A stretch of DNA of 64,000 nucleotides from Candidatus Moraniibacteriota bacterium (GCA_018062205.1 JAGOSP010000004.1:198-64197); one strand, 5' to 3'. Numbered from the stretch's first letter, positions 8,904 to 50,713 are shown. Numbers and translations: made by a program. The notes: generated from the sequence alone by a model not told the origin.

Positions 8904-10040
8904 TCAGTGCGTTGTCATGCGGGAAACATTGGGAGGATTGACTCCTTTTAGAATACTCCACATTCGTTGGAACGTTATCTCGCCGGAATTAATTGCTGCA
9001 TCCTCTTCCGGCGTAGACAAAATAAACTCACCCATGACTTCCATTCCACCAACGATACCTTGGAGGCCAGCAGACCTCGAGTAGCGATAATTTCGCGGGA
9101 CGAGGTAGAATGTGACTTGCGATTTTTCGTGAATTGCGATGAGATTGGCCGAAGCGGCATTGCCCACCGTGTTACTCCACTCACGCATGCGTCCGATGGT
9201 GGCGCGAATCGTGTTTTCGCGGTTACCGGTGATACGGAAGGTGGTCAGCGGGTAATGCTGCGTGTCTACAACAAGCACTGACGGGGAAATATCATCAGCT
9301 GGTGTGCCGATGGATTCATTGGCCTTTTGCTCGATTCTCCTGGCTGCGTGTTGGATAGGGAAAAGCCCATGACCAGCAGGACTCATGAACGCCTGAAAAT
9401 GAAGGTGCTCTTCGATGCTGGCTCCAGCACCAACTCCGTTGTAAAAGCAGATCCATTCGGGTAGTTTGACGGCGAGATCATAGAGATCTGTGACTATCCG
9501 GGTCATCTTCCCCAATTCCTCTTCGGGTTTCCCATGCCATGATTGCGGTGCGTGTTCGGTGGAGGCGATTGTCATATGTGTCGGCATGAAGGGGAATGGG
9601 TTGCACAGTGCCGCATAGCTATTCCCGTTTACATCGAAGAGAAAGTAAAACTGCACTCCTCTTGATTGCCAACCAACGTTTTCGTGACAGATAAAACATT
9701 TGGTGGAACGGGTGGTTTTAGTTGCGACTCCCTCGGGCGGAGTAACTCGTCCGTTTCCTTTGAAACGAAGGCGGCGATTGGGATTATATTGCCCAATAAA
9801 GAAGGCATCGTCGCCTCCATGGCACTGGAAGTAGCGCACGGCAGTCAGGTCGTCAATGATGAATCCACTGTCCATTTGTTGTGCATGCAGGAGTCTCAGG
9901 GCATCCGAAAGCGGATGCTTGTTGAGTATTGCCTGAAGTTCGGCACGGTTCCGTAGATAGATGGAATCAGTCCATCTCCCCATCGTAGAACGCCCATCGG
10001 GATTTTGATAATCCGGAAGCAGGACAATTTTTGTAGTCAT
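8904..10040 (-). CDS. HIT-superfamily nucleotide-sugar phosphorylase-like protein (GDP-L-galactose/GDP-D-glucose phosphorylase GDPGP1/VTC2-like)
   Basis: HIT variant motif HLHFQAF (HxHxQ, diagnostic of the GDPGP1/VTC2 branch). An upstream segment (CNPFPFMPTHM) is analogous to the VTC2 substrate loop. The gene is GC-rich (about 52%) relative to its neighbours. Confidence 0.55.
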   Translation of the reverse strand: MTTKIVLLPDYQNPDGRSTMGRWTDSIYLRNRAELQAILNKHPLSDALRLLHAQQMDSGFIIDDLTAVRYFQCHGGDDAFFIGQYNPNRRLRFKGNGRVTPPEGVATKTTRSTKCFICHENVGWQSRGVQFYFLFDVNGNSYAALCNPFPFMPTHMTIASTEHAPQSWHGKPEEELGKMTRIVTDLYDLAVKLPEWICFYNGVGAGASIEEHLHFQAFMSPAGHGLFPIQHAARRIEQKANESIGTPADDISPSVLVVDTQHYPLTTFRITGNRENTIRATIGRMREWSNTVGNAASANLIAIHEKSQVTFYLVPRNYRYSRSAGLQGIVGGMEVMGEFILSTPEEDAAINSGEITFQRMWSILKGVNPPNVSRMTTH

Positions 10041-11652: not shown

Positions 11653-11932
11653 AAGAAGAGTGTGTGTGATGATTTAAGTCCCTCTGTTTGAGGTGGAGTT
11701 TATTATAGAATATTTTGGTTTGTTCTCAAAATGAAAGAGTATTTTCTTTTCCGAAATTTGTTTCACTGACGAAAAAAATCGTCAATAAATTTATAAATAA
11801 TAAGGCTTTTATAAGCCATAAGTATGCGTTCTATTTTGAGGAAAGCATGCTAATTTGCATGTCTCTCCTCATGGAATTTGACTTTCATTTACACTGCTCT
11901 TAAGCTCATTGACAACAAAAGAGGAAAAAATC

Positions 11933-13102
11933 ATGAAACGGTATCGGCGTGGATTGGTAGCGCTTTCGGCAGATCCAATAACCTTTGGGCATATAGACTT
12001 GATTCGACGAGCAAAGGATTTATGTGACTCTCTCGTGATTCTTGTGGCAAATAATGACCTGAAAGTTGGGAGTTATCTGTTCACTCTTGAAGAGCGAGTT
12101 GCGATAACGAAGGAAGCAGTTCAACAGGCAGGAATAGCAAATATCTATGTTATTGGATCGCAAAACCTTCTTGTTGATGTCTATATCCGCGAAGACTGCG
12201 ATATTGTTTTCCGTGGTATTCGAAACGAAAAGGATGCCGCCTTTGAAAAGGAGCAAATGGAGCTTCATGTACATATCTTGCCAGACCTCCAAGGCCGTAT
12301 AGAGTTTTTGGAATCACACGAAGAATATCGAATGATTTCCTCATCGCTTGTGAAGGCATTCGTACGGAGTCATGTGGACGTGTCTCGTTTTGTGCCAGCT
12401 TTTGTGAAGCAGCTTCTTGAGGAACGAATTTGTCAGCAGTACATTCTTGCTGTTACTGGATGTCAGGCGAATGGAAAGACTTATGTTGCGGAATCGCTTG
12501 CGAGAAATTTGGTCGAAAGTGGAATCGAATCGCATGTGATCAGCATTGATGTTTTACTCCGGACTCTCTATGACGAAGATTCGCTGGGGGCGCAGAAGAT
12601 CCGTTTAGCACTCTCTCAGTTGTTTGGGGACGATGTGTTGACTGCTGATCAGAAACAGGTGCGTCGATCGGTACTTAAAAAACGCATCTTTGATTCCGAA
12701 CAGGATACAGAGAAAAGAGAACTGCTGCATTCCCTAGTCGAGCCGCATATTGATCGTTTGTATCGGGAAGCACTAGCAGGGAAAAAGGGATTGATTATTT
12801 TTGAATGGGCGCAGCTCGCAGAAATGAAGATGTCTTTCTGGTCAAACCATCAGGTCATTGTTGTAACAAGCGATGACCAGAGATTGTTGGCGGAAATGAG
12901 AGAAATATCTTCGGAAAATCAATCGCAAATGGCAAATTTTCAGTGGAGTACTGAGGAAAAAATCAGGGCACTCTATCAGGCCGCGAACGAAGCGATGCAC
13001 GGTACAGTAGTCTCTTACACGAATCGAGTTGGTGACGAGGAATCAATGAATCGTCTCGCTCAAACAGTGCGAAAAATATTCCCAGCACTTGGGATGGTTT
13101 GA
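11933..13102 (+). CDS. coaD: bifunctional phosphopantetheine adenylyltransferase / dephospho-CoA kinase (CoaD-CoaE fusion)
   Basis: The N-terminal PPAT domain has (T/H)xGH as DPITFGHIDLIRRA. The C-terminal P-loop (GCQANGKT) and the DPCK-like layout (LFGDDVL..LKKRIFDS..HSLVEPHI..VIVVTSDDQRLLAEM) match CoaE. RBS AGAGGA. Confidence 0.75.
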   Translation: MKRYRRGLVALSADPITFGHIDLIRRAKDLCDSLVILVANNDLKVGSYLFTLEERVAITKEAVQQAGIANIYVIGSQNLLVDVYIREDCDIVFRGIRNEKDAAFEKEQMELHVHILPDLQGRIEFLESHEEYRMISSSLVKAFVRSHVDVSRFVPAFVKQLLEERICQQYILAVTGCQANGKTYVAESLARNLVESGIESHVISIDVLLRTLYDEDSLGAQKIRLALSQLFGDDVLTADQKQVRRSVLKKRIFDSEQDTEKRELLHSLVEPHIDRLYREALAGKKGLIIFEWAQLAEMKMSFWSNHQVIVVTSDDQRLLAEMREISSENQSQMANFQWSTEEKIRALYQAANEAMHGTVVSYTNRVGDEESMNRLAQTVRKIFPALGMV

Positions 13103-13113
13103 CGGAGGAAATC

Positions 13114-13905
13114 ATGGATATTGGTCAGTATGAAATTCTGAGAAAAATCGGAGAGGGAAGCTTTGGGCGAACCTTCGAAGGTCGGCACCACATTCTTGGT
13201 ATACCAGCCTGCATTAAACAGGAGCGAACTGGAGACCCTGTCTATCAGAGAATGTTTCGGGAGGAAGCGGAACTGCTCGCAAAGGTGCATCATATCTCGC
13301 TTCCGGCATTTCGCGATTATTTTGAGCTTCCGGATTTTGGTCAGGTGCTCGTGATGTCATATATTTCCGGCGAAAATCTTCGGAAACGGGTTGATCGGGA
13401 AGGCGCGATTGATGATGAGCATATCGCATGGATTCTTCAGCGTACACTCGACGCTTTATCATATCTTCATTTTCAGTGCATCGTGCACTGCGATGTGAAG
13501 CCAGAAAATCTGATTCTTCATTTGGAGGAACATAATGTTGTCTTGGTAGATTTCGGATTGGGAGTGATTCACTCCGATGCAAAGACGCTGGCTAAGGGGG
13601 GAACAGAAGCCTATATGCCTCCAGAATTCGGAAATGGGTTACCGCCAATCCCGGCATCAGATATTTATTCGATTGGGAAAACCGCAGTGTTTCTTTCGGG
13701 TGGCAATCCGATGACTGGGGCGCTTCCAAAAGACATGCACCCGCTGTTTGCAGAGTGCATACGAGCGATGATTCGTAAGGATCCATTCGCTCGGCCGCAG
13801 AATGCGCGCGATGTCAGTCGCCGCATAACAGAAATCCGTCGCCAAATTTTTGGTCGAACGGAAACAACCGAGTTGTTTAAACTTCGTGAGAGGAGTATAT
13901 CATGA
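13114..13905 (+). CDS. Hanks-type Ser/Thr protein kinase (kinase domain only)
   Basis: Gly loop GEGSFG. A Lys-containing ACIK segment, catalytic loop HCDVKPEN, and DFG. RBS GGAGG 5 nt upstream. Its stop overlaps the next gene start (ATGA). Confidence 0.85.
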   Translation: MDIGQYEILRKIGEGSFGRTFEGRHHILGIPACIKQERTGDPVYQRMFREEAELLAKVHHISLPAFRDYFELPDFGQVLVMSYISGENLRKRVDREGAIDDEHIAWILQRTLDALSYLHFQCIVHCDVKPENLILHLEEHNVVLVDFGLGVIHSDAKTLAKGGTEAYMPPEFGNGLPPIPASDIYSIGKTAVFLSGGNPMTGALPKDMHPLFAECIRAMIRKDPFARPQNARDVSRRITEIRRQIFGRTETTELFKLRERSIS

Positions 13906-14942
13906 GTGGCGCATTTGGATGGGCACGGGCAAATTCAGCGGATGCTGGCACGAGAGTGCATGGCCCGGACAATTTCGCGGGAGCCAAAGGAGCATATGGC
14001 GGTGGGGCGAAACGAGTCGATATCGGATTTGATTCGAATGATGGGAGAAGTCGTAAGATCGACGCATTCGCAAACAAGCTCGGACCAAAAACGATTCCGA
14101 ACGGGAAGAGTACGCTTTCGAGTACGGCAGCCAATGTTGTCATGGTAGTGCTCGATGTGACAGGGTCGATGCAGGAGTGGCCGCAAGAGATTTTCAGGCG
14201 GCTCCCGCTTCTCTATACCGATCTTGTCAGGTATCTCGGATCGGATGACTTGGAAGTCCTCTTCATCGCCCATGGTGATGCGAGTGGATCAGACCGGTAT
14301 CCGGTGCAGGTAGGACGATTCGCACGTGGCGCGGAACTCGATGCAGTCCTTGCTTCGCTGGAACGCGAGGGCGGCGGGAGTGGCCGCGAATCACAACGTG
14401 AATCACAAGAGCTCATTGCTTACTACATGGTTGAGCGTATCGATACGACGTCGGCACAGAATGTCTTTGTCTTCTTCGTCACCGATGAAGCTGGCTATGA
14501 CACAGTGACTGCTTCGCAAGTTGATCAGCTTCTGGGAGTCCCGATGAATCATGAGCTTATCAGGACAGCGGATGTCTTTGCGAAGCTTTCGATTACGGCG
14601 GATGTGTATGCAGTGGTATGCGATACGAAGTCGTATGACAGTCCTCTGGCTCCAACCTGGTGGAAGAAAATGCTTGGTTCGGAACAAGTACTTCTGCTCG
14701 ATGATGCACGGCGGATTGTCGATGTATTGCTTGGGGTGATGGCTGGAAAAGTGGGGAAAGATCATGAATTTGATCAAGATCTCACAAGGCGTCAGGTCGG
14801 TATGCCACATGGGTATGCCAATATCGCAAATGTGCACAAGACGCTGGCAATTGTCCGAAGAGGTGGGAAAACAAGGCTTCTCCTGCCCCCGGATGTATCA
14901 GGGTCGCATAGCAAGAAGACGCGCTCCTTGCTGGATGATTGA
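13902..14942 (+). CDS. von Willebrand factor A (vWA) domain protein (TerY-like) with Gly-rich N-terminus
   Basis: MIDAS motif VVLDVTGSM. Translationally coupled to the kinase. RBS AGGAG. The gene is GC-rich. Confidence 0.75.
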   Translation: MSGAFGWARANSADAGTRVHGPDNFAGAKGAYGGGAKRVDIGFDSNDGRSRKIDAFANKLGPKTIPNGKSTLSSTAANVVMVVLDVTGSMQEWPQEIFRRLPLLYTDLVRYLGSDDLEVLFIAHGDASGSDRYPVQVGRFARGAELDAVLASLEREGGGSGRESQRESQELIAYYMVERIDTTSAQNVFVFFVTDEAGYDTVTASQVDQLLGVPMNHELIRTADVFAKLSITADVYAVVCDTKSYDSPLAPTWWKKMLGSEQVLLLDDARRIVDVLLGVMAGKVGKDHEFDQDLTRRQVGMPHGYANIANVHKTLAIVRRGGKTRLLLPPDVSGSHSKKTRSLLDD

Positions 14943-15012: not shown

Positions 15013-15570
15013 CTATTCCCTGGTGAACTTCGCGAATTCACGCTCCCATGTTTCAAGAACGAGAGAGGAGATTGCTGGGTTGAGGAGTAGTTCCAAATCG
15101 CCGGGTCGCCTTTCCAAAAGGGCATCTCGGACTTCAGTTGCCGAAACTTTGGGGGTTTCTTTTCCAGCGAATCGGTTGATGATATGGAACGGTTTTCGTC
15201 CCTCCTCAATGAGCACACTCATTTCTTCTCTGCATCCGCCAACGAAGACTGTTCTTTCGGGGGCAAATCCAATGGCGCTGAGTATGCTGTCGATCGCCAT
15301 GAGCCATGACGAATTATCGTTATCAAAATCCGGCAAGGGGACTATGCTGAGTTCGGACTCGGGAAAAACTTTTCGCAGAAAAGATACTCGCTCTGCATAA
15401 CTAAAAAAATGCCGGATCGTTCGTGCATGCGAGGCACTTCCGATGAAAACGACACAGCGACCACTCCTCTCTATCATGCTGCGAATCATGGCCTCGTGAC
15501 CAGTATGAACTGGATTGAATCTGCCAACATAGGCCATTTCTGGCTTTTTAGTGGGTTTTTTAGTTGCCAT
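15013..15570 (-). CDS. nadM: nicotinamide-nucleotide adenylyltransferase, archaeal/NadM-type cytidylyltransferase fold
   Basis: GRFNPVHTGH matches the NMNAT (H/T)xGH signature (GRFQPFHxGH). 186 aa from the ATG at 15570, which has an AAGGAG RBS. The longer track ORF start at 15780 is rejected. Confidence 0.7.
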   Translation of the reverse strand: MATKKPTKKPEMAYVGRFNPVHTGHEAMIRSMIERSGRCVVFIGSASHARTIRHFFSYAERVSFLRKVFPESELSIVPLPDFDNDNSSWLMAIDSILSAIGFAPERTVFVGGCREEMSVLIEEGRKPFHIINRFAGKETPKVSATEVRDALLERRPGDLELLLNPAISSLVLETWEREFAKFTRE

Positions 15571-15797
15571 TGCTGATTCTCCTTGAGAGATGTCGCGCGG
15601 TTGAAAAGAACTGTAAATAAATAAGATATCATATACGTATACTTTTGTCAATGTCCGTGTTCTCGTTGTGTAGTTTGGAAGATAAAGATGCCGTTTGTGT
15701 AAAATACACGAAGTCTCATCGAATATTGAGAGGAAGATTTTTCTTGATATTTCTGTCGCTTCGCGATAGGATGCAGGCAATCGGCCATTACATTTTT

Positions 15798-16559
15798 ATG
15801 AGAAAAGAAATTAAAGAAGCATTGGAAAATCTTGGTTTTAGTACCAATGAGACTGCGGTGTATATCGCACTCACTCAGCTTGGAGAATCTCCAATAGCGA
15901 TTATTGCCAAGAAAGCGGAGCTTCCTCGGACAACCGTGGCGAGTATCTTGCTCCAGATGGCAAACAATGGATATGTTTCATCGCATGTCTATCGGAGGAA
16001 AACGTGGTATTGGGTTGAGTCTCCACGCACCATTGAAAGGATGCTTGAGAATCGAATTGCCATTGCCCAGGAATTGAACGGACTTCTGACGGATTTCTAT
16101 CGAAGCGAGGCGGATTTTCCGGAAGCAAAAGTGTTTGATACGAAAACTTCCATGAAAGCTTTTATTGAAAAACTCATGGTAACCATGAAAGATGGGACAT
16201 TGATTTTGACTTTGGATACCCCAGGTGCCGCTAACTATACAAAAATTTATTCTGAGAATTTTGATCTTGTTTTACGAGAAATAAAACGGAAGAAGAAAAT
16301 CATTACACATACACTTATTCCAATGGGCACGGGAGCAAGGATTGATCCGAGAAAATTGATGAATCGAGGAATTACTCTTCGTGAAATGCCAGCTGGGGTA
16401 CAGGGGTTTCAGGCTTCATTTTGGATTATTGATGATTTGTTTGTACAATTTTCTGGGCGATATCCCTTTATTGTTTCGGTACGACATTCTTTGATTGCCG
16501 AAAGTATGCGAGCGATTTTCCAGTATCTCTGGTCTGTTTCCACACCGGTAAAAAAATAA
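15798..16559 (+). CDS. TrmB-family wHTH transcriptional regulator-like protein
   Basis: N-terminal LGFSTNETAVYIALTQLGESPIAIIAKKAELPRTTVASILLQM is a TrmB-type wHTH. The start was taken at the internal ATG 15798. Confidence 0.55.
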   Translation: MRKEIKEALENLGFSTNETAVYIALTQLGESPIAIIAKKAELPRTTVASILLQMANNGYVSSHVYRRKTWYWVESPRTIERMLENRIAIAQELNGLLTDFYRSEADFPEAKVFDTKTSMKAFIEKLMVTMKDGTLILTLDTPGAANYTKIYSENFDLVLREIKRKKKIITHTLIPMGTGARIDPRKLMNRGITLREMPAGVQGFQASFWIIDDLFVQFSGRYPFIVSVRHSLIAESMRAIFQYLWSVSTPVKK

Positions 16560-20232: not shown

Positions 20233-20478
20233 ATGTGTCTTGCGATACCCGGAAAAATTGAGGTGGTGGAAGGAAAAAAAGCGATGGTAAATTTCGGAGG
20301 AATCAAGCGTCGCGTTGATCTTTCCTTTCTCGATGATGCAGCCCAAGATGATTGGGTTTTGGTGCATGTTGGTTTTGCTCTTCAAAAAATAGATGAGGCA
20401 TCGGCACGAGAGGCGTACCATTTGCTTGCCGATACCCGTCCTGCTGATCTTGATGCAGAATTAAAAGCAATGTCATGA
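20233..20478 (+). CDS. hypC: [NiFe] hydrogenase maturation factor HypC
   Basis: Begins MCLAIPGKI (the essential Cys2). 81 aa. An extended -10 (TGgTACAAT) lies upstream at about 20203. Confidence 0.9.
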   Translation: MCLAIPGKIEVVEGKKAMVNFGGIKRRVDLSFLDDAAQDDWVLVHVGFALQKIDEASAREAYHLLADTRPADLDAELKAMS

Positions 20479-21494
20479 AAAGTCCGCTTCTTGCTGCCAT
20501 CGAGACTCTAGCGAAAGATATGGGTGAAGTGCGACTTATGGAAGTATGTGGCGGACATACGAACACGGTGATGCGTTTTGGTTTGCGGGAGGTCTTACCT
20601 TCGAATGTTCGTTTAATTTCTGGTCCTGGATGTCCAGTGTGTGTGACATCACAGCACGATATTGATTCCATGGTGGAATTGGCGCTTTCGGGGGTCCCAG
20701 TCGCAACGTATGGCGATATGATTAATGTGCCAGGGACAAAGATGAGCCTGGTAGATGCGCAAAACCTCGGAGCGGATGTGCGTATGGTGTATTCGATTGA
20801 TCAGATTATTGATGAGAAAGAGCGGGTATTTTTTGCCGTTGGGTTTGAGACAACGACACCGATGACTGCCAAGCTTCTCTCGGCGGGGATCAAAGTTTTT
20901 TGCGCACACAAGGTGATGCCGCCAGCCATGCGGGCGCTGACACAGGAAATGAATCTCGATGGTTTTATTGATCCGGGCCATGTTTCAGCTATTATCGGGA
21001 GCGATGTGTGGGGGAATATGGATATCCCATTGCCTCAAGTTATTTCTGGTTTTAAACCGGATCAACTCCTGCATGCAATTTTGACTTTGCTTGAACTGAT
21101 TAAGAATAAGGAAATACGGGTAGTAAATGACTATCCGGAGGTGGTGTTTCCGGGAGGCAATCCGATTGCGAAACGAATGATTAAAGAAACGTTGAAGCCA
21201 GTGGATTCTGAATGGCGAGGTATGGGAGTAATTCCTCTTTCAGGGCTAGCGCCGATCGATGAACGACTGGATGCCCGCCTGATTTATGCGGATCTTTTTA
21301 AGGATATCGTGAGCGTTGAACACCCCGAATGTCGCTGTGGAGAAATTGTTCGTGGCTTGGTTGAGCCAAGACAATGCCCTCTTTTTGGGACAGTTTGCAC
21401 GCCAGAGAATCCAAAGGGCGCTTGTATGGTGAGCGATTCTGAGGGAGCCTGTGCCATTGCTTATAAATATGGAAAAAGTTTAGCTGAAGTATGA
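20475..21494 (+). CDS. hypD: [NiFe] hydrogenase maturation factor HypD
   Basis: Motifs MEVCGGHT and GPGCPVCVT. Confidence 0.9.
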   Translation: MKSPLLAAIETLAKDMGEVRLMEVCGGHTNTVMRFGLREVLPSNVRLISGPGCPVCVTSQHDIDSMVELALSGVPVATYGDMINVPGTKMSLVDAQNLGADVRMVYSIDQIIDEKERVFFAVGFETTTPMTAKLLSAGIKVFCAHKVMPPAMRALTQEMNLDGFIDPGHVSAIIGSDVWGNMDIPLPQVISGFKPDQLLHAILTLLELIKNKEIRVVNDYPEVVFPGGNPIAKRMIKETLKPVDSEWRGMGVIPLSGLAPIDERLDARLIYADLFKDIVSVEHPECRCGEIVRGLVEPRQCPLFGTVCTPENPKGACMVSDSEGACAIAYKYGKSLAEV

Positions 21495-22519
21495 AGAAAA
21501 AAGATGAATCATGTCTGACGGGACAATGCCCGACACCGGTTGAACGCCCTTTGCATACGATTAAATTAAGTGAGGGGAGTGGTGGTCGTGAAATGCAAGC
21601 ACTTATTGGAACGCTCCGCGGACAGCTCGGCCCGACGAATAACTGGAAACACAGCGGGGATGATGGTGCGACCTTCTCTCTTGGAGATCAGCAATTGGTG
21701 TTTACCACGGATGCTTATGTGGTAACGCCGATTTTTTTTCCGGGAGGAAATATTGGGAAGATTGCATTTTGCGGTACGGTAAATGATTTAGCAGTGATGG
21801 GTGCTCGTCCGATTGGAATTTCTCTTTCACTGATTTTAGAGGAGGGATTTTCCAAGGAAGAATTTACGACCATTATCGACACCATCGGGAAACTGTCACG
21901 GGAAACTGGAATTCCAGTGGTGACTGGTGATACTAAGGTCGTTGAACGTGGGGGTATTGATAAAATCATCATCAATACGAGTGGCGTCGGATTGGCAGTG
22001 CGAGTACTCGAAGCACCACTCGAAGTGGGAGATGCAATAATTGTGTCTGGTGGTCTGGGCGAACATGGAGCAGCGCTACTTGCTCGACGCTTTGAACTGG
22101 AAACAACCCTGCAAACCGACAGCAAACCACTGCACGAAGAATTAGCAGTGATTGGTGACTATATCAAACAGGCGAAAGACATTACTCGGGGTGGGCTTGC
22201 CGCTATTCTGAATGAGCTTTCAGAGAAAAATTCGGTAGCTCTTACGGTTGAAGAAGCAGTTGTTCCATTGCATGACGAAGTTCGGGCTTTAACGGAGATG
22301 CTTGGTATTGATGTCTATAGTCTGGCGAGCGAAGGGCGCTTCGTTTGTATTGTGGCACCAGAACAGGAAAAGCGTGTACTTGAGATACTCCGCACCTTTA
22401 ATCCTTCGGCAGTGCAGATTGGAAGAGTGTCTGCTGGACGAGGAGTTTCCGTCCAGACAGTATATGGTAAGAAAATTCTCTCAATGCCTTCAGGGAATAT
22501 TGTTCCGCGGATTTGCTAG
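21491..22519 (+). CDS. hypE: [NiFe] hydrogenase maturation factor HypE
   Basis: AIR-synthase-like fold. N-terminal SGGREMQALI. C-terminal PRIC. Confidence 0.9.
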   Translation: MKKKDESCLTGQCPTPVERPLHTIKLSEGSGGREMQALIGTLRGQLGPTNNWKHSGDDGATFSLGDQQLVFTTDAYVVTPIFFPGGNIGKIAFCGTVNDLAVMGARPIGISLSLILEEGFSKEEFTTIIDTIGKLSRETGIPVVTGDTKVVERGGIDKIIINTSGVGLAVRVLEAPLEVGDAIIVSGGLGEHGAALLARRFELETTLQTDSKPLHEELAVIGDYIKQAKDITRGGLAAILNELSEKNSVALTVEEAVVPLHDEVRALTEMLGIDVYSLASEGRFVCIVAPEQEKRVLEILRTFNPSAVQIGRVSAGRGVSVQTVYGKKILSMPSGNIVPRIC

Positions 22520-24661
22520 ATATGCGGCGATTTGACCAAAACTGATGCCGCCATCACCAGAAGGAATTTCTTTGTTGACGAGAACGCCTTTGGAAAGAAA
22601 GTATTCAGTCATGATACGGTTATAAGCGCAGCCTCCGGCCCACACAATGGGCTTTTTTGTTTGGATGGCAATGGAATAAAGACCAATGGCTAGATATTTT
22701 TGTGCGGTGGCAGCAAGGCGGTATTTGTCCTCGTGTAAGTGTTCGATGAGGTAATGAAAGAGGGGAGTGGTTCGCAACACAGAATCTTTGATGACGGGGG
22801 TGATATCAAATGGCTCGGTAGAATATGCTTCTAGAAGCATGGCTGGTCGGCCATCATAAGTCCTCTCATCGCAGAGATTAAGGAGGGCAGCAGTCGCATC
22901 TAAAATTCGGCCGCAACTGGAGGTGAGAGGCGCATTGAATTTTTCGACAAATTGTTTTTCGAGGAGGGTGAGTTCGGAGGAAGAAAAGTGAGAATTGAGG
23001 AATGGACTACTCTCTTCAGGGGAAAGAAAGGACCGAAGAAGCGCATAGAGCATGCGGTGAGGAAATCGTGCGGCAGCATCACCACCAAGTTGCGGGTGGA
23101 GTTCGAGATGTCCAATGCGTGTGTGATTTTCAAATACCTCTCCACCCCAGAGCGTGCCATCATCTCCATAGCCAAGTCCGTCGCAAATGATAGCTGCAAA
23201 ATCGCTTAGCTGATGCTCGGCAGCAGCTGCATATGCATGGGCTCGGTGGTGTTGAATGGGAACGAGTGGAATGCTCAGTTGATTGGCAAGGTCGTGTCCA
23301 TAGAGAGACGTTTGATAATTTGGATGTGCATCACAAAGAATAGCCTGGGGCATGATATGAGCGTAAGAGAGGAAGCGATCAAGAGCAGCTCGATAGCGAT
23401 TGAAAGTGTCGGGATGAGTGGTGTTACCGATGTGCTGGGAGACAATAACACGCCCCTGTCCGTCATAGAGCGCGAATGTATTGTTCATTTCGGCACCAAG
23501 AGCGAGAAGGGGAGTTGTTATTGGCGAATGAATAATGATGGATTGAGGAACAAAGCCGCGGCTGCGTCGGATAAGTAAGGGTGTCTTGGCAATAACTTTG
23601 ACAACAGAATCATCGGTAGCATTGATAATCTCTCGATTATGGTCGAGTACCAGAGGGACAAATTGTTCTTCTCGCGTGGTGGTGAGTGGCGCGTGAGCCA
23701 GATTGGAAGAGGTGCAGATAAGCGGATAGGGATAATGTTCAAAGAGAAGGATATGGAGCGCAGTCGAAGCAAGCATAATGCCGAGAGTGTCGAGCTCGCT
23801 CACTTCTGGGGATTGGGTATTTTTTTTCACAAGAACGATAGGACGTTTTGGCGAAAGAAGTTGTTGCTCTTCTTCGAGAGTTGGACGAGAAATCATCTGC
23901 GCCATAGCGAGGTCTCGACAGAGAACTGCATAGGGTTTATGGATTCTTCCGGTAATGAGATTGAGCTTGTTTTTGGTTTTCTTCTGGGTATTACAGAATA
24001 AATGAAATCCACCAACTCCTTTGATGGCTACAACTTCTCCTTGAGAGAGCGCCTGCCCAACATGGTGGAGTATGTCTTGTTCAGCTGTTTTGGTTGAAGC
24101 AGCGCCATCTTGAAAGAGGGTGAGTTTTGGTCCACATGTGTGACAGGCGATGGTTTGAGCGTGGAATCTTCGACTTGTTGGATTGCGATACTCGTCACTA
24201 CAGTCAGGGCAGAGAGGAAAAATATGCATGGAGGTTGTTGCTCGGTCATAGGGACTTGATTTCGCCATAGTGAAGCGCGGACCGCAAAGAGTGCAGGTGA
24301 GAAAGAAATAATGGTGTCGGCGATTTTCTGGATTGCCAAGTTCTAAGAGGCAATCATCACACAAGAAAAAATCTGGTGGAATTTCAGAGAAACCTACGCC
24401 GGTGCTTGCGCGTATAGTGAAATCAGTACAGTGTTCCTTGGAGACTTCTTTCTGAATGGTATCAATACGCATGTGAGATGGAAGTTGATCAAGAATATTT
24501 TGAAAGGCTACGGTATCATTGACGACTACCACAACACCTTCTCCGGTGTTTTGCACGAAACCAAAAAGTTTCTCTTTGATACAGGCATTATAAATAAAAG
24601 GTCGGAATCCAACTCCCTGAACGATACCTTTAATAAGAAATTGGTGGAAAAGATGATTCAT
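22490..24661 (-). CDS. hypF: carbamoyltransferase HypF
   Basis: N-terminal acylphosphatase domain (VQGVGFRPF). Two Zn-finger-like CxxC pairs. YrdC and Kae1-like domains. Its 3' end overlaps hypE by 30 nt. Confidence 0.9.
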   Translation of the reverse strand: MNHLFHQFLIKGIVQGVGFRPFIYNACIKEKLFGFVQNTGEGVVVVVNDTVAFQNILDQLPSHMRIDTIQKEVSKEHCTDFTIRASTGVGFSEIPPDFFLCDDCLLELGNPENRRHHYFFLTCTLCGPRFTMAKSSPYDRATTSMHIFPLCPDCSDEYRNPTSRRFHAQTIACHTCGPKLTLFQDGAASTKTAEQDILHHVGQALSQGEVVAIKGVGGFHLFCNTQKKTKNKLNLITGRIHKPYAVLCRDLAMAQMISRPTLEEEQQLLSPKRPIVLVKKNTQSPEVSELDTLGIMLASTALHILLFEHYPYPLICTSSNLAHAPLTTTREEQFVPLVLDHNREIINATDDSVVKVIAKTPLLIRRSRGFVPQSIIIHSPITTPLLALGAEMNNTFALYDGQGRVIVSQHIGNTTHPDTFNRYRAALDRFLSYAHIMPQAILCDAHPNYQTSLYGHDLANQLSIPLVPIQHHRAHAYAAAAEHQLSDFAAIICDGLGYGDDGTLWGGEVFENHTRIGHLELHPQLGGDAAARFPHRMLYALLRSFLSPEESSPFLNSHFSSSELTLLEKQFVEKFNAPLTSSCGRILDATAALLNLCDERTYDGRPAMLLEAYSTEPFDITPVIKDSVLRTTPLFHYLIEHLHEDKYRLAATAQKYLAIGLYSIAIQTKKPIVWAGGCAYNRIMTEYFLSKGVLVNKEIPSGDGGISFGQIAAYLANPRNNIP

Positions 24662-49411: not shown

Positions 49412-50713
49412 ATGCACCAAGTATCAGAAATGAGCGCATTCAGTATTAAAGAAATTACCAAGATTGAAGGATCAGCAGGACTTGAGGTGCTTGTTGAGGA
49501 TGGCAAGGTGACATCTGTGCAGTTTGCTATCAATGAATACAAGCGCTTCTTTACTCAGGCGATGGTGGGCAAGTCTATTATGGCGATTCCACAAATGCTG
49601 GCACGTATTTGCGGTACCTGTTCCAATGCGCATCTTATGGCAAGTATTGAAGCGGTCGAGAAGGGCTTTGGACTCCAGCCAACCGAACAAACGAAACTGC
49701 TCCGCACATTAGCGTATCATGGTTTGATTATTCGTGATCATGCGCTCCATCTGTATATCTTTGTGGCACCGGATTTTTTTGGGAAAGATTCTTTGCTTGC
49801 TTTTGATGAAAATGATCCAGCACAGCATGATGTTTTGCATGATGCATTTGCTATCAAATCAGTTGGGAATCACCTTTCGATTTTAGCAGGCGGACGAAGT
49901 GTCCATGCGCCTTTTCTTATGCCAGGTGGTTTTGCCAAAGTTCCTGAGAAGGAGGAAATGGAGAAATGTCTGGAAGAACTCAAAGCTATTCGGCCAACGA
50001 TACTCCGTTCAATTGAGTTATTCATGAATTGCCCGTTTTCTTTTATTCGTGAAACCAACTATATTGGTCTGAAGTCCACCCCATTTTCGTATTTCGAAGG
50101 AGAACTCTGGGATATGAATGGAAAAATCTGTGATGAGAGTGGATACCGCAGTCATCTTGAGCACGTTGTCATTCCCTATTCACAGGCTTCCGGATACACG
50201 TTTGATGGGAAGGTATTTCGAGTTGGTGCACTTGCTCGGGTCAATCTCAACAAAGATGCTTTTCATCCGAATACACGGCGCGATGCAGCCGAAGCACTCA
50301 AGCGTTTCCCGTCCCATGACGTTTACGATAATTGTTTGGCGCAAGCGATTGCTATTCTTCATTCAGTTGATGAATCGATTGATATTCTCTCCACAGCAAC
50401 TTTTGCGAAAGAACCTTTGCAACAAATAGTACCAAGGGAAACAGTGTGTGTCGGTGTGGTGGAAGCACCGCGCGGTACGCTGTATCATAAATATGAGACG
50501 GATGCGAAGGGTGTTGTTACTCATGGCGAAGTGATTGTACCGACTGGGCAGAATCAAATTACGGTCGAGCAAGATCTCGGAAAATTTATTCAGGACAACC
50601 TTGCTCTTGATCGTGATGCTCTCGGATTGGAGTGTGAAAAAATCATTCGCGCCTATGACCCTTGCATGAGCTGTGCCTCACACTTCCTCAAACTCAAAAT
50701 CCGCGAGATCTGA
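49412..50713 (+). CDS. [NiFe] hydrogenase large subunit (group 3-like)
   Basis: N-terminal RICGTCSNAH (L1, RxCGxCxxxH). C-terminal DPCMSCASH (L2) with a 9-residue tail consistent with C-terminal processing. Confidence 0.85.
   Translation: MHQVSEMSAFSIKEITKIEGSAGLEVLVEDGKVTSVQFAINEYKRFFTQAMVGKSIMAIPQMLARICGTCSNAHLMASIEAVEKGFGLQPTEQTKLLRTLAYHGLIIRDHALHLYIFVAPDFFGKDSLLAFDENDPAQHDVLHDAFAIKSVGNHLSILAGGRSVHAPFLMPGGFAKVPEKEEMEKCLEELKAIRPTILRSIELFMNCPFSFIRETNYIGLKSTPFSYFEGELWDMNGKICDESGYRSHLEHVVIPYSQASGYTFDGKVFRVGALARVNLNKDAFHPNTRRDAAEALKRFPSHDVYDNCLAQAIAILHSVDESIDILSTATFAKEPLQQIVPRETVCVGVVEAPRGTLYHKYETDAKGVVTHGEVIVPTGQNQITVEQDLGKFIQDNLALDRDALGLECEKIIRAYDPCMSCASHFLKLKIREI

What the first reader, a model, noticed from the sequence alone, without database searches (positions are those of the whole stretch)
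11933..13102. Bacterial PPAT-DPCK (CoaD-CoaE) fusion resembling eukaryotic CoA synthase
The N-terminal domain has the PPAT HxGH signature (TFGH) and the adenylyltransferase fold. The C-terminal 200 aa has a P-loop GCQANGKT and the full dephospho-CoA kinase layout. In bacteria the two terminal CoA steps are almost always separate genes, so a single 389-aa fusion is unusual. It would imply channeling of dephospho-CoA.
Basis: partly seen in the sequence, partly recalled or inferred. Interest (0 to 1): 0.5.

Follow-up and report, generated by a model that had tools for sequence, protein, structure and literature searches.

The report
Bacterial CoaD–CoaE fused CoA synthase
A tiny-genome (CPR/Moranbacteria) bacterium makes the last two enzymes of coenzyme A synthesis as one fused protein, a real but not unique arrangement built independently of the eukaryotic version, and the gene is consistently in one operon with a protein kinase and a vWA protein that also occur as a pair in phages.

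Summary
Window 11933-13102 (+) is one 389-aa ORF with a bacterial-type PPAT/CoaD domain (aa 1-167) joined without a linker to a dephospho-CoA-kinase (CoaE) domain (aa 169-389).

- **Active sites:** catalytic residues of both domains are invariant across 42 relatives.
- **How rare it is:** at least about 150 clusters at 50% identity share this architecture. They come mainly from Patescibacteria (Moran-, Uhr-, Kerfeld-, Parcubacteria), plus Bacteroidota, DPANN archaea and giant phage-like contigs.
- **Relation to COASY:** it resembles eukaryotic CoA synthase in domain order only. The PPAT half is the bacterial CoaD type, so the fusion is convergent.

The new finding is the operon. In the window's clade the fusion is followed by a Hanks-type Ser/Thr kinase and a MIDAS-vWA protein. 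That pair also occurs without CoaDE in mycobacteriophages and a 485-kb phage.

The most likely function is salvage of 4'-phosphopantetheine to CoA, possibly under phospho-control. Enzyme identity is well supported. The salvage context and the kinase coupling are inferred.

Novelty: new variant of a known kind. Interest is moderate.

The parts
11920..11925 (+). Shine-Dalgarno-like AGAGGA, 7 nt upstream of the ATG start of the fusion gene
   Evidence: Read directly from the sequence. The upstream TTG at 11909 has no such motif. The 389-aa form from the ATG is the database representative.
11933..13102 (+). coaD-coaE fusion gene (389 aa plus stop), predicted bifunctional phosphopantetheine adenylyltransferase / dephospho-CoA kinase
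   Evidence: ORF. Domain HMMs. PDB sequence matches. AlphaFold model with pLDDT 94.7 and pTM 0.91. Fold matches. Family conservation.
11933..12433 (+). CoaD (bacterial PPAT) domain, aa 1-167
12437..13099 (+). CoaE (dephospho-CoA kinase) domain, aa 169-389, a divergent member of the family
13114..13905 (+). Hanks-type Ser/Thr protein kinase (263 aa, kinase domain only), second gene of the operon. Its GGAGGA ribosome-binding site lies at 13104-13109, and only 11 nt separate it from the coaDE stop codon.
   Evidence: Pfam Pkinase E=7.4e-33. PHROG phrog_2361 'serine-threonine kinase'. Junction sequence. The 263-aa form is the database representative. The sequence shows GEGSFG, a beta3 Lys (ACIK), HCDVKPEN and DFG motifs. 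It lies directly downstream of the fusion in most clade-A loci.
13902..14942 (+). vWA (integrin beta-I-like) protein with a MIDAS motif, 346 aa, third gene of the operon. Its start overlaps the kinase stop as ATGA.
15013..15570 (-). Small archaeal/NadM-type NMN adenylyltransferase-like gene, convergent with the operon. It is syntenic in the Moranbacteria loci.
   Evidence: Pfam CTP_transf_like E=8e-10. The best NCBIfam hits are NMNAT families, all below their cutoffs. M. jannaschii NMNAT 1f9a matches at E=2e-9. Synteny. It is not a second CoaD: TIGR01510 scores only 18 bits.
15798..16559 (+). TrmB-family transcriptional regulator. The ORF opens at 15645, and the likely start is M52 at 15798. 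A homologue is adjacent to the fusion in most CPR loci.
   Evidence: Pfam TrmB E=7e-10. Homologues of about 250 aa lie next to coaDE in L001, L003, L005, L015-L019, L021, L023, L024, L026-L029 and L036.

Best explanation
The gene encodes a bifunctional CoA synthase assembled from bacterial parts.

Predicted reaction:
1. The N-terminal CoaD domain adenylylates 4'-phosphopantetheine with ATP to give dephospho-CoA.
2. The directly abutting C-terminal CoaE domain phosphorylates the 3'-OH with a second ATP to give CoA.

Predicted role: the host is a reduced-genome Candidatus Moranbacteria (CPR/Patescibacteria) cell, a group reported to lack cofactor biosynthesis. The enzyme most likely completes CoA from salvaged 4'-phosphopantetheine rather than ending a full de novo pathway.

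Operon: the gene is first in a three-gene operon with a minimal Hanks-type Ser/Thr kinase and a MIDAS-vWA protein. The most likely reading is that this cassette couples CoA synthase activity or stability to a phosphorylation signal.

What is shown: domain identities, conserved active-site residues, the family and its distribution, and the conserved operon.

What is inferred: the actual substrates and products, the salvage context, any channelling, and the nature of the kinase/vWA coupling.
For: Domain identity: both halves are identified by HMMs, by PDB sequence matches and by fold.

Active sites: residues are invariant in 42 relatives down to 27% identity. They map onto E. coli PPAT H18/K42/R88/R91/D95/E99/S128-130 and onto the DPCK Walker A, catalytic Asp and conserved Gln.

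Pathway logic: fusing two consecutive pathway steps is itself strong evidence that the divergent kinase half acts on dephospho-CoA. PPAT-DPCK fusions arose independently in eukaryotes and archaea (PMC6650551).

Host and pathway context:
- Host identity comes from source names.
- The window is cellular DNA carrying ArgRS, IleRS, RecO, Tgt and hydrogenase genes, and no other CoA gene was found among the scanned ORFs.
- Patescibacterial MAGs are reported to lack cofactor pathways yet make acetyl-CoA through PFOR (PMC7426153).
- Truncated CoA pathways occur in other reduced bacteria (PMC8721197).

Operon:
- There is an 11-nt gap with a GGAGGA site, then an ATGA overlap, and no + strand terminator-like site.
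- The kinase and vWA genes follow the fusion in Moran-, Uhr- and other Patescibacteria and on phage-like contigs, while the outer flanks differ.
- 21 of 65 CoaDE clusters share a contig with a vWA homologue.
- The linkage maps to one clade of the family.
Against: - The CoaE half fails the TIGR00152 equivalog cutoff (40.8 against 65.55 bits). Its P-loop (GCQANGKT) is atypical, and the DPCK 'PLL.E' segment reads 'AQLAE'.
- No enzymatic data exist for any family member.
- Only 64 kb of the genome is visible, so the absence of coaA/coaX/coaBC or of stand-alone coaD/coaE is not shown.
- Some Parcubacteria are reported to lack acetyl-CoA metabolism altogether (PMC4776705), which leaves the need for CoA unclear.
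- The kinase-vWA pair occurs without CoaDE in phages, and CoaDE occurs without the pair in clade B and in a few clade-A loci. The coupling is therefore not obligatory.
Confidence: 0.75

Rival explanations
1. The three genes form a phage-derived conflict module for defence, counter-defence or host takeover. In this reading the CoaD-CoaE-like enzyme makes, modifies or restores a nucleotide-type metabolite under kinase/vWA control. It would resemble the vWA + kinase 'TerY-P' switches that accompany restriction and defence systems, rather than serving housekeeping CoA supply.
For: - The kinase-to-vWA pair is a cassette in isolated phages: about 190 Bixzunavirus-type mycobacteriophages (for example Sebata gp260-gp261) and the 485-kb phage LR745208.1.
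- The full trio sits on a 152-kb contig with strong phage-family hits and on IMG/VR contigs of 402 and 536 kb that also carry orphan methylases and an ADP-ribosylglycohydrolase.
- The kinase is consistently more conserved than the fusion.
- TerY-P triads act as switches and as antiphage systems (PMC10542128).
Against: - Neither the fusion nor the vWA protein matches any PADLOC defence model. The kinase hits there are generic Hanks-kinase matches.
- No PP2C gene lies near the trio in the window. The kinase has no Zn-ribbon or OB extension.
- The PPAT substrate-contact and catalytic residues are fully canonical.
- The block is vertically widespread in cellular CPR genomes next to a TrmB regulator.
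- Fusions without the cassette exist (clade B).
Confidence: 0.12
2. The C-terminal domain is not a dephospho-CoA kinase. It would be a different P-loop kinase or a regulatory NTPase, making the protein a PPAT with an accessory domain rather than a two-step CoA synthase.
For: - It scores below the TIGR00152 equivalog cutoff.
- Identity to solved DPCKs is low at 16-26%.
- Its Walker A composition is atypical, and the Pro of the DPCK PLL.E motif is lost.
Against: - CoaE is by far the best Pfam family, at E=5.7e-14 against at least 4e-4 for any other P-loop family.
- The catalytic Asp after strand 2, the lid Arg and the conserved Gln are invariant.
- The long variants score higher against CoaE, at 64-96 bits.
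- The domain is fused to the enzyme that makes the DPCK substrate.
Confidence: 0.08
3. The fusion is an artefact, either a frameshift or misassembly that joined adjacent coaD and coaE genes, or a gene-calling error.
For: None found. The possibility is considered only because MAG assemblies can contain such errors.
Against: - The identical protein is found on 15 contigs from several sources.
- More than 150 diverged clusters share the same continuous architecture.
- The AlphaFold model runs from the last CoaD helix straight into the first kinase strand with pLDDT above 90.
Confidence: 0.01

Closest known systems
Eukaryotic CoA synthase (COASY; bifunctional PPAT/DPCK)
Stand-alone bacterial CoaD (PPAT, e.g. 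E. coli 1b6t) and CoaE (DPCK, e.g. H. influenzae 1jjv, T. maritima 2grj)
   Same: Folds and catalytic residues match: H/TxGH, K42, R88, R91 and the ISSS motif in CoaD, and Walker A, catalytic Asp, lid Arg and Gln in CoaE.
   Different: The two are covalently joined with no linker. The CoaE half is divergent and falls below the equivalog cutoff. G9/T10/F11 of E. coli PPAT read L/S/A here.
Archaeal PPAT-DPCK fusions (archaeal PPAT + arCOG04076 GTP-dependent DPCK; PMC6650551)
   Same: The same two consecutive CoA steps are fused in uncultured small-genome lineages. That fusion was used as a Rosetta-stone clue to function.
   Different: Both domains there belong to different, non-homologous families: archaeal-type PPAT and a thiamine-pyrophosphokinase-like DPCK. 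The fusions seen here in two DPANN archaeal MAGs are of the bacterial CoaD+CoaE type.
TerY-P triad (vWA + Ser/Thr kinase + PP2C phosphatase)
   Same: A MIDAS-vWA protein and a Hanks-type kinase are encoded side by side and attached to other functional modules. TerY-P is described as a phosphorylation switch and as an antiphage system (PMC10542128).
   Different: The window has no PP2C partner near the trio. The kinase has no Zn-ribbon or OB extension. The vWA protein matches no PADLOC or Pfam model. The partner here is a CoA-synthase fusion.
Mycobacteriophage Bixzunavirus gp260-gp261 pair (Ser/Thr kinase + hypothetical protein)
   Same: It has the same kinase-to-vWA gene order and homologous proteins, at about 30% identity.
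   Different: There is no CoaDE nearby, the kinase is longer (357 aa), and the function in phage is unknown.

Membership tests
Bacterial phosphopantetheine adenylyltransferase (CoaD, TIGR01510) | Whole-domain HMM score above the curated equivalog cutoff | tested here: met
   106 bits against a cutoff of 103.3, covering aa 9-165 and profile positions 4-154 of 155. The margin is narrow.
Bacterial phosphopantetheine adenylyltransferase (CoaD, TIGR01510) | T/HxGH nucleotidyltransferase motif with the catalytic His, plus K42, R88, R91 and the ISSS phosphate-binding motif (E. coli numbering) | tested here: met
   The residues are T17-F-G-H20, K44, R94, R97 and S136-S138. H20, K44, R97 and S137 are invariant in 42 relatives. 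The alignments to E. coli PPAT are shown.
Bacterial phosphopantetheine adenylyltransferase (CoaD, TIGR01510) | PPAT fold | tested here: met
Bacterial phosphopantetheine adenylyltransferase (CoaD, TIGR01510) | Catalyses ATP + 4'-phosphopantetheine -> dephospho-CoA + PPi; homohexameric assembly | not testable with these tools
   This needs an enzyme assay and oligomer analysis. Whether the C-terminal fusion is compatible with the CoaD hexamer was not examined.
Dephospho-CoA kinase (CoaE; PF01121 / TIGR00152) | Pfam family gathering threshold | tested here: met
   52.6 bits against a cutoff of 27, E=5.7e-14, covering aa 170-345 and profile positions 1-166 of 180.
Dephospho-CoA kinase (CoaE; PF01121 / TIGR00152) | NCBIfam equivalog cutoff (TIGR00152) | tested here: not met
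   40.8 bits against a cutoff of 65.55. This is a divergent member, so equivalence of function is inferred rather than certified by the model.
Dephospho-CoA kinase (CoaE; PF01121 / TIGR00152) | Walker A GxxxxGK[ST] and the catalytic Asp following strand 2 (the D of the 'DAD' / 'VNVD' motif) | tested here: met
   Walker A is G176-CQAN-G181-K182-T183. D206 aligns with the Asp of E. coli, H. influenzae and T. maritima DPCK. Both are invariant in the family.
Dephospho-CoA kinase (CoaE; PF01121 / TIGR00152) | Structure closest to DPCK rather than to other P-loop kinases | tested here: met
Dephospho-CoA kinase (CoaE; PF01121 / TIGR00152) | Phosphorylates the 3'-OH of dephospho-CoA | not testable with these tools
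   This needs an enzyme assay or complementation of a coaE mutant.
Eukaryotic CoA synthase (COASY) | PPAT then DPCK on one chain | tested here: met
   Domain order.
Eukaryotic CoA synthase (COASY) | PPAT domain of the eukaryotic/archaeal type | tested here: not met
TerY-P triad | vWA + Ser/Thr kinase + PP2C phosphatase encoded together | tested here: not met
   vWA and kinase are present. No PP2C homologue was detected in the window or in the other loci, except about 4 kb beyond the trio in L001. In L008 a Metallophos phosphoesterase follows the vWA gene.

The most novel reading that the evidence does not exclude
In a major clade of CPR/Patescibacteria, and in giant phages carrying the same block, the last two steps of CoA synthesis are fused. 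They are placed under a eukaryote-like Ser/Thr-kinase plus MIDAS-vWA switch that is shared with phages. CoA supply in these host-dependent cells would then be a signalling-controlled point that phages can capture. This would be the first phospho-regulated CoA synthase outside eukaryotes.
Probability: 0.2. Interest if true: 0.65.

Novelty: new variant of a known kind. Interest (0 to 1): 0.45.

Why it matters
**Convergent evolution.** PPAT and DPCK have now been fused at least three times from different building blocks: the eukaryotic COASY, the archaeal PPAT-arCOG04076 fusion, and this bacterial CoaD-CoaE. That is a clear case of convergent pathway compaction.

**Metabolic reconstruction.** The fusion points to a concrete dependency of ultra-small CPR bacteria, namely import of 4'-phosphopantetheine or a close precursor. 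This could be exploited for cultivation media or co-culture design.

**Annotation.** Public names currently describe only half of the protein ('pantetheine-phosphate adenylyltransferase' or 'dephospho-CoA kinase'). Pathway reconstructions that count genes by name will therefore mis-score the CoA pathway in these lineages.

**Hypothesis for experiment.** The conserved linkage to a kinase-vWA cassette that also lives in phages gives a testable link between protein phosphorylation, CoA supply and phage-host interaction in CPR bacteria.

Tried and rejected
1. **Better fit to another kinase family.** Rejected. Uridine kinase, APS kinase and the AAA families all score E>=4e-4, against 5.7e-14 for CoaE.
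2. **Rosetta-stone test.** I checked whether the 517-639-aa family members carry the kinase or the vWA protein as their extra domain. They do not. The extension is an unrelated HD-hydrolase-like domain.
3. **PP2C partner that would make a TerY-P triad.** None was found in the window or in most loci.
4. **PADLOC defence models.** Only generic kinase hits appeared, and nothing matched the fusion or the vWA protein.
5. **GenBank phages carrying the fusion.** Only CoaD-alone matches were found, with at most 46% coverage, and several look like bacterial contamination.
6. **A second CoaD in the window.** The neighbouring small nucleotidyltransferase is NMNAT-like, not PPAT.
7. **Other CoA genes in the window.** None were found among 41 ORFs scanned. 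Short ORFs were not scanned, and 64 kb says little about the whole genome.
8. **Literature.** Searches for a described bacterial CoaD-CoaE fusion or for CPR CoA salvage found no paper.
9. **Species-genome scan.** The first scan, using the broad alignment, failed for lack of a conserved pattern. It was repeated with a tighter alignment, which biases the taxon list toward clade A.
10. **tRNA scan of the window.** No tRNA genes were found.

Full report

Yes. One open reading frame runs from 11909 (TTG) or 11933 (ATG) to the TGA at 13100-13102 on the + strand.

- The ATG at 11933 lies 7 nt after an AGAGGA Shine-Dalgarno-like motif.
- It yields a 389-aa protein identical to a database cluster representative, NCBI MBP6889061.1. 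That entry is named only 'pantetheine-phosphate adenylyltransferase', from Candidatus Moranbacteria, and was seen on 15 contigs.
- The quoted motifs are present: PITFGH at aa 15-20 and GCQANGKT at aa 176-183.
- The rest of the window is ordinary cellular DNA of a reduced-genome bacterium. It carries ArgRS, IleRS, RecO, Tgt, NiFe-hydrogenase with HypDEF, metal pumps and ABC transporters.

**2. What are the two halves?**

N-terminal half (aa 1-167):
- It passes the curated equivalog cutoff for bacterial PPAT/CoaD. TIGR01510 scores 106 bits against 103.3.
- It matches E. coli-type PPAT structures by sequence at E~1e-22.

C-terminal half (aa 169-389):
- It passes the Pfam CoaE threshold, with 52.6 bits against 27 and E=5.7e-14.
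- It does not pass the stricter TIGR00152 equivalog cutoff, with 40.8 bits against 65.55. It is a divergent DPCK.
- Searched alone against all solved structures, its seven best sequence hits are all dephospho-CoA kinases. The next family, SRP54, has E=0.04.

Structure:
- An AlphaFold2 model built on 42 relatives is very confident, with pLDDT 94.7 and pTM 0.91. The last CoaD helix (156-167) runs straight into the first kinase strand (169-176).
- Foldseek places the N-domain on bacterial PPATs at TM 0.93 and 1.4-1.9 A rmsd.

**3. Are both active sites intact?**

Invariant columns in an alignment of 42 relatives reaching 27% identity:
- CoaD half: S12, D14, P15, G19, H20, K44, G95, R97, D101, S137.
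- CoaE half: T175, G176, G181, K182, D206, R224, R278, G286, R323, Q337.

Mapping onto E. coli PPAT gives these correspondences. H20 corresponds to the catalytic H18. K44 corresponds to K42, R94 to R88, R97 to R91, D101 to D95, E105 to E99 and S136-138 to S128-130. T10 is conservatively replaced by Ser.

In the kinase half, the Walker A motif, the Asp after strand 2 (D206, the DPCK catalytic base position) and the conserved Gln are retained.

They were used for numbering only, and the local alignments agree with the HMMER alignments to PDB chains.

**4. How unusual is the fusion?**

It is rare among bacteria in general but far from unique.
- The word-indexed search found about 100 clusters at 90% identity with both Pfam domains and lengths of 370-445 aa.
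- The exhaustive search of 1.84 billion representatives found 157 with E<=1e-30. Nearly all of the 150 listed align across both domains in one stretch.
- Named sources are Moran-, Uhr-, Kerfeld- and Parcubacteria and unclassified Patescibacteria. There are also two DPANN archaeal MAGs, from Woesearchaeota and Nanoarchaeota.
- One genuine Bacteroidota genome carries it, with T9SS-tail proteins around the gene.
- Nine IMG/VR viral contigs of 104-536 kb carry it.
- Databases already flag some members automatically, as 'Multifunctional fusion protein' or as the JGI name 'pantetheine-phosphate adenylyltransferase/dephospho-CoA kinase'.
- I found no paper describing a bacterial CoaD-CoaE fusion.

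**5. Relation to the eukaryotic enzyme**

The domain order is the same and the DPCK halves are homologous. The PPAT half is the bacterial CoaD family, not the eukaryotic/archaeal PPAT type.

PPAT-DPCK fusions are documented in eukaryotes (COASY) and in archaea, where an archaeal PPAT is joined to the non-homologous arCOG04076 DPCK (PMC6650551). The present protein is a third, independent way of fusing the same two steps. It works like COASY but is not a member of that family.

**6. The surroundings: a conserved operon**

Junctions in the window:
- Eleven nucleotides after the fusion's stop codon, and preceded by GGAGGA, starts a 263-aa Hanks-type Ser/Thr kinase (13114-13905; Pkinase E=7e-33).
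- The kinase stop overlaps, as ATGA, the start of a 346-aa protein (13902-14942).
- No + strand terminator-like site interrupts the three genes.

The third protein:
- It has no Pfam, NCBIfam, PADLOC or PDB sequence match.
- Its MIDAS residues D85, T87, S89 and D195 are invariant.

Recurrence of the block fusion -> kinase -> vWA, as percent identity to the window proteins in that order:
- L001: 65/82/72.
- L005: 52/57/43.
- Uhrbacteria L021 (48/60/40) and L029 (37/56/40).
- L023, L024 and L026.
- The phage-like L004: 42/49/46.
- IMG/VR contigs L006 (36/48/39) and L008 (30/48/34).

Further points on the linkage:
- The outer flanks differ even in the 65%-identical relative, so this is more than inherited synteny.
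- 21 of 65 fusion clusters with contigs of at least 6 kb share a contig with a vWA homologue.
- A TrmB-family regulator is adjacent in most CPR loci.
- A rough NJ tree splits the family into two clades. Clade A holds all CPR members plus L004, L006 and L008, and nearly all of them carry the cassette. Clade B holds the Bacteroidota, DPANN and other IMG/VR members, and none of them carry it.

**7. The kinase-vWA pair is a phage-associated cassette**

- vWA homologues occur in about 190 Bixzunavirus-type mycobacteriophages. In phage Sebata, gp261 lies immediately after gp260, annotated 'Ser/Thr kinase'.
- In the 485-kb uncultured phage LR745208.1 the same pair is adjacent, without any CoaDE within 6 kb.
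- L004 is very probably a real phage. One of its proteins has full-length homologues of about 42% identity in 734 sequenced phages, and the locus is a run of short co-directional ORFs.
- L008 carries four orphan DNA methyltransferases, an ADP-ribosylglycohydrolase, and a calcineurin-like phosphoesterase right after the vWA gene.
- The nearest described analogue is the TerY-P triad of vWA, kinase and PP2C, proposed as a phosphorylation switch and shown to act in phage defence (PMC10542128). No PP2C accompanies the trio here, and the kinase lacks the Zn-ribbon or OB extension. It is therefore not a TerY-P member.

**8. Most likely mechanism**

Shown:
- The protein is a two-domain enzyme with intact PPAT and DPCK catalytic machinery, conserved as a unit.
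- It is co-transcribed with a predicted active kinase (GEGSFG, beta3 Lys, HCD, DFG motifs) and a MIDAS-vWA protein.

Inferred:
- It converts 4'-phosphopantetheine to CoA in two ATP-dependent steps.
- In this CPR host it completes a salvage route. Patescibacterial MAGs are reported to lack cofactor pathways while still using acetyl-CoA (PMC7426153), and truncated CoA pathways are known in Mycoplasma (PMC8721197).
- The kinase/vWA pair modulates the enzyme.

Not testable here:
- Channelling is plausible but could not be tested.
- Whether separate coaD/coaE or upstream genes exist elsewhere in the genome could not be tested from 64 kb.

**9. Verdict**

- It is a real PPAT-DPCK fusion.
- It is convergent with COASY, not homologous to it in its PPAT half.
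- It belongs to a sizeable uncharacterized family rather than being a one-off.

The added value of this analysis is the conserved fusion-kinase-vWA operon and its phage connection. Novelty: new variant of a known kind. Interest: moderate (0.45).

Noticed in passing
Proteins P0276, P0286, P0289, P0290, P0292, P0320, P0324, P0328, P0333, P0335 (relatives, not in the window): About ten representative clusters of the fusion are 517-639 aa long. They carry an extra C-terminal domain of about 200 aa that is homologous among them. The domain has YHxLxH...WWxHDxxY motifs and a weak match to a predicted HD-superfamily hydrolase (2pq7, E=0.015). It has no Pfam hit. This is probably a triple fusion, CoaD-CoaE-HD phosphohydrolase.
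   Followed up: partly
window 15013-15570 (-): A 185-aa archaeal/NadM-type NMN adenylyltransferase-like protein (GRFNPVHTGH motif) lies convergent with the operon. It scores below every curated cutoff. It is syntenic in the Moranbacteria loci and in L026. A last-step NAD enzyme thus sits next to the last-step CoA enzyme.
   Followed up: partly
L038 (Mycobacterium phage Sebata NC_041993.1, gp260-gp261) and L037 (uncultured phage LR745208.1, 4983-6660): A Ser/Thr kinase followed by a homologue of the window's vWA protein forms a two-gene cassette. It occurs in about 190 Bixzunavirus-type mycobacteriophages and in a 485-kb phage. The vWA partner is annotated only as 'hypothetical protein'.
   Followed up: partly
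L004 (ENA ERZ25423051 NODE_1, 152 kb), L006/L014 (IMG/VR 402 kb), L008 (IMG/VR 536 kb); also L007, L009-L013: Large phage-like contigs encode full-length CoaD-CoaE fusions. Three of them carry the whole fusion-kinase-vWA block. L008 also has four orphan N6/N4 DNA methyltransferases within 15 kb, an ADP-ribosylglycohydrolase, and a calcineurin-like phosphoesterase directly after the vWA gene. Viral status was supported for L004, and otherwise rests on the IMG/VR classification.
   Followed up: partly
L032 (Woesearchaeota MAG, 1.56-Mb scaffold) and L033 (Nanoarchaeota MAG): Bacterial-type CoaD-CoaE fusions at 32-33% identity occur in DPANN archaeal MAGs, without the kinase-vWA genes. They group with the Bacteroidota and IMG/VR copies in the rough tree. 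This suggests transfer between domains, or mis-binning.
   Followed up: no
window 8904-10040 (-): A 378-aa DUF4922 protein carries an HLHFQ (HIT/GalT-like) motif. It has no PHROG, NCBIfam or PADLOC match and is not syntenic with the fusion in any other locus.
   Followed up: no
window 1-64000: GC skew is positive in every 2-kb bin and cumulative skew rises monotonically. About 80% of the called genes are on the + strand. This is consistent with the whole window lying on one replichore, leading strand up.
   Followed up: no
window 15645-16559 (+): The TrmB-family ORF is probably called too long. Homologues are about 250 aa and align from residue 32-52 onward. The start is therefore likely M52 at 15798, which also removes the overlap with the upstream region of the NMNAT-like gene.
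   Followed up: partly
window 20475-24661 and 49412-50713: Hydrogenase maturation genes HypD, HypE-like and HypF, together with a NiFe-hydrogenase large-subunit-like gene, are present in a CPR genome.
   Followed up: no
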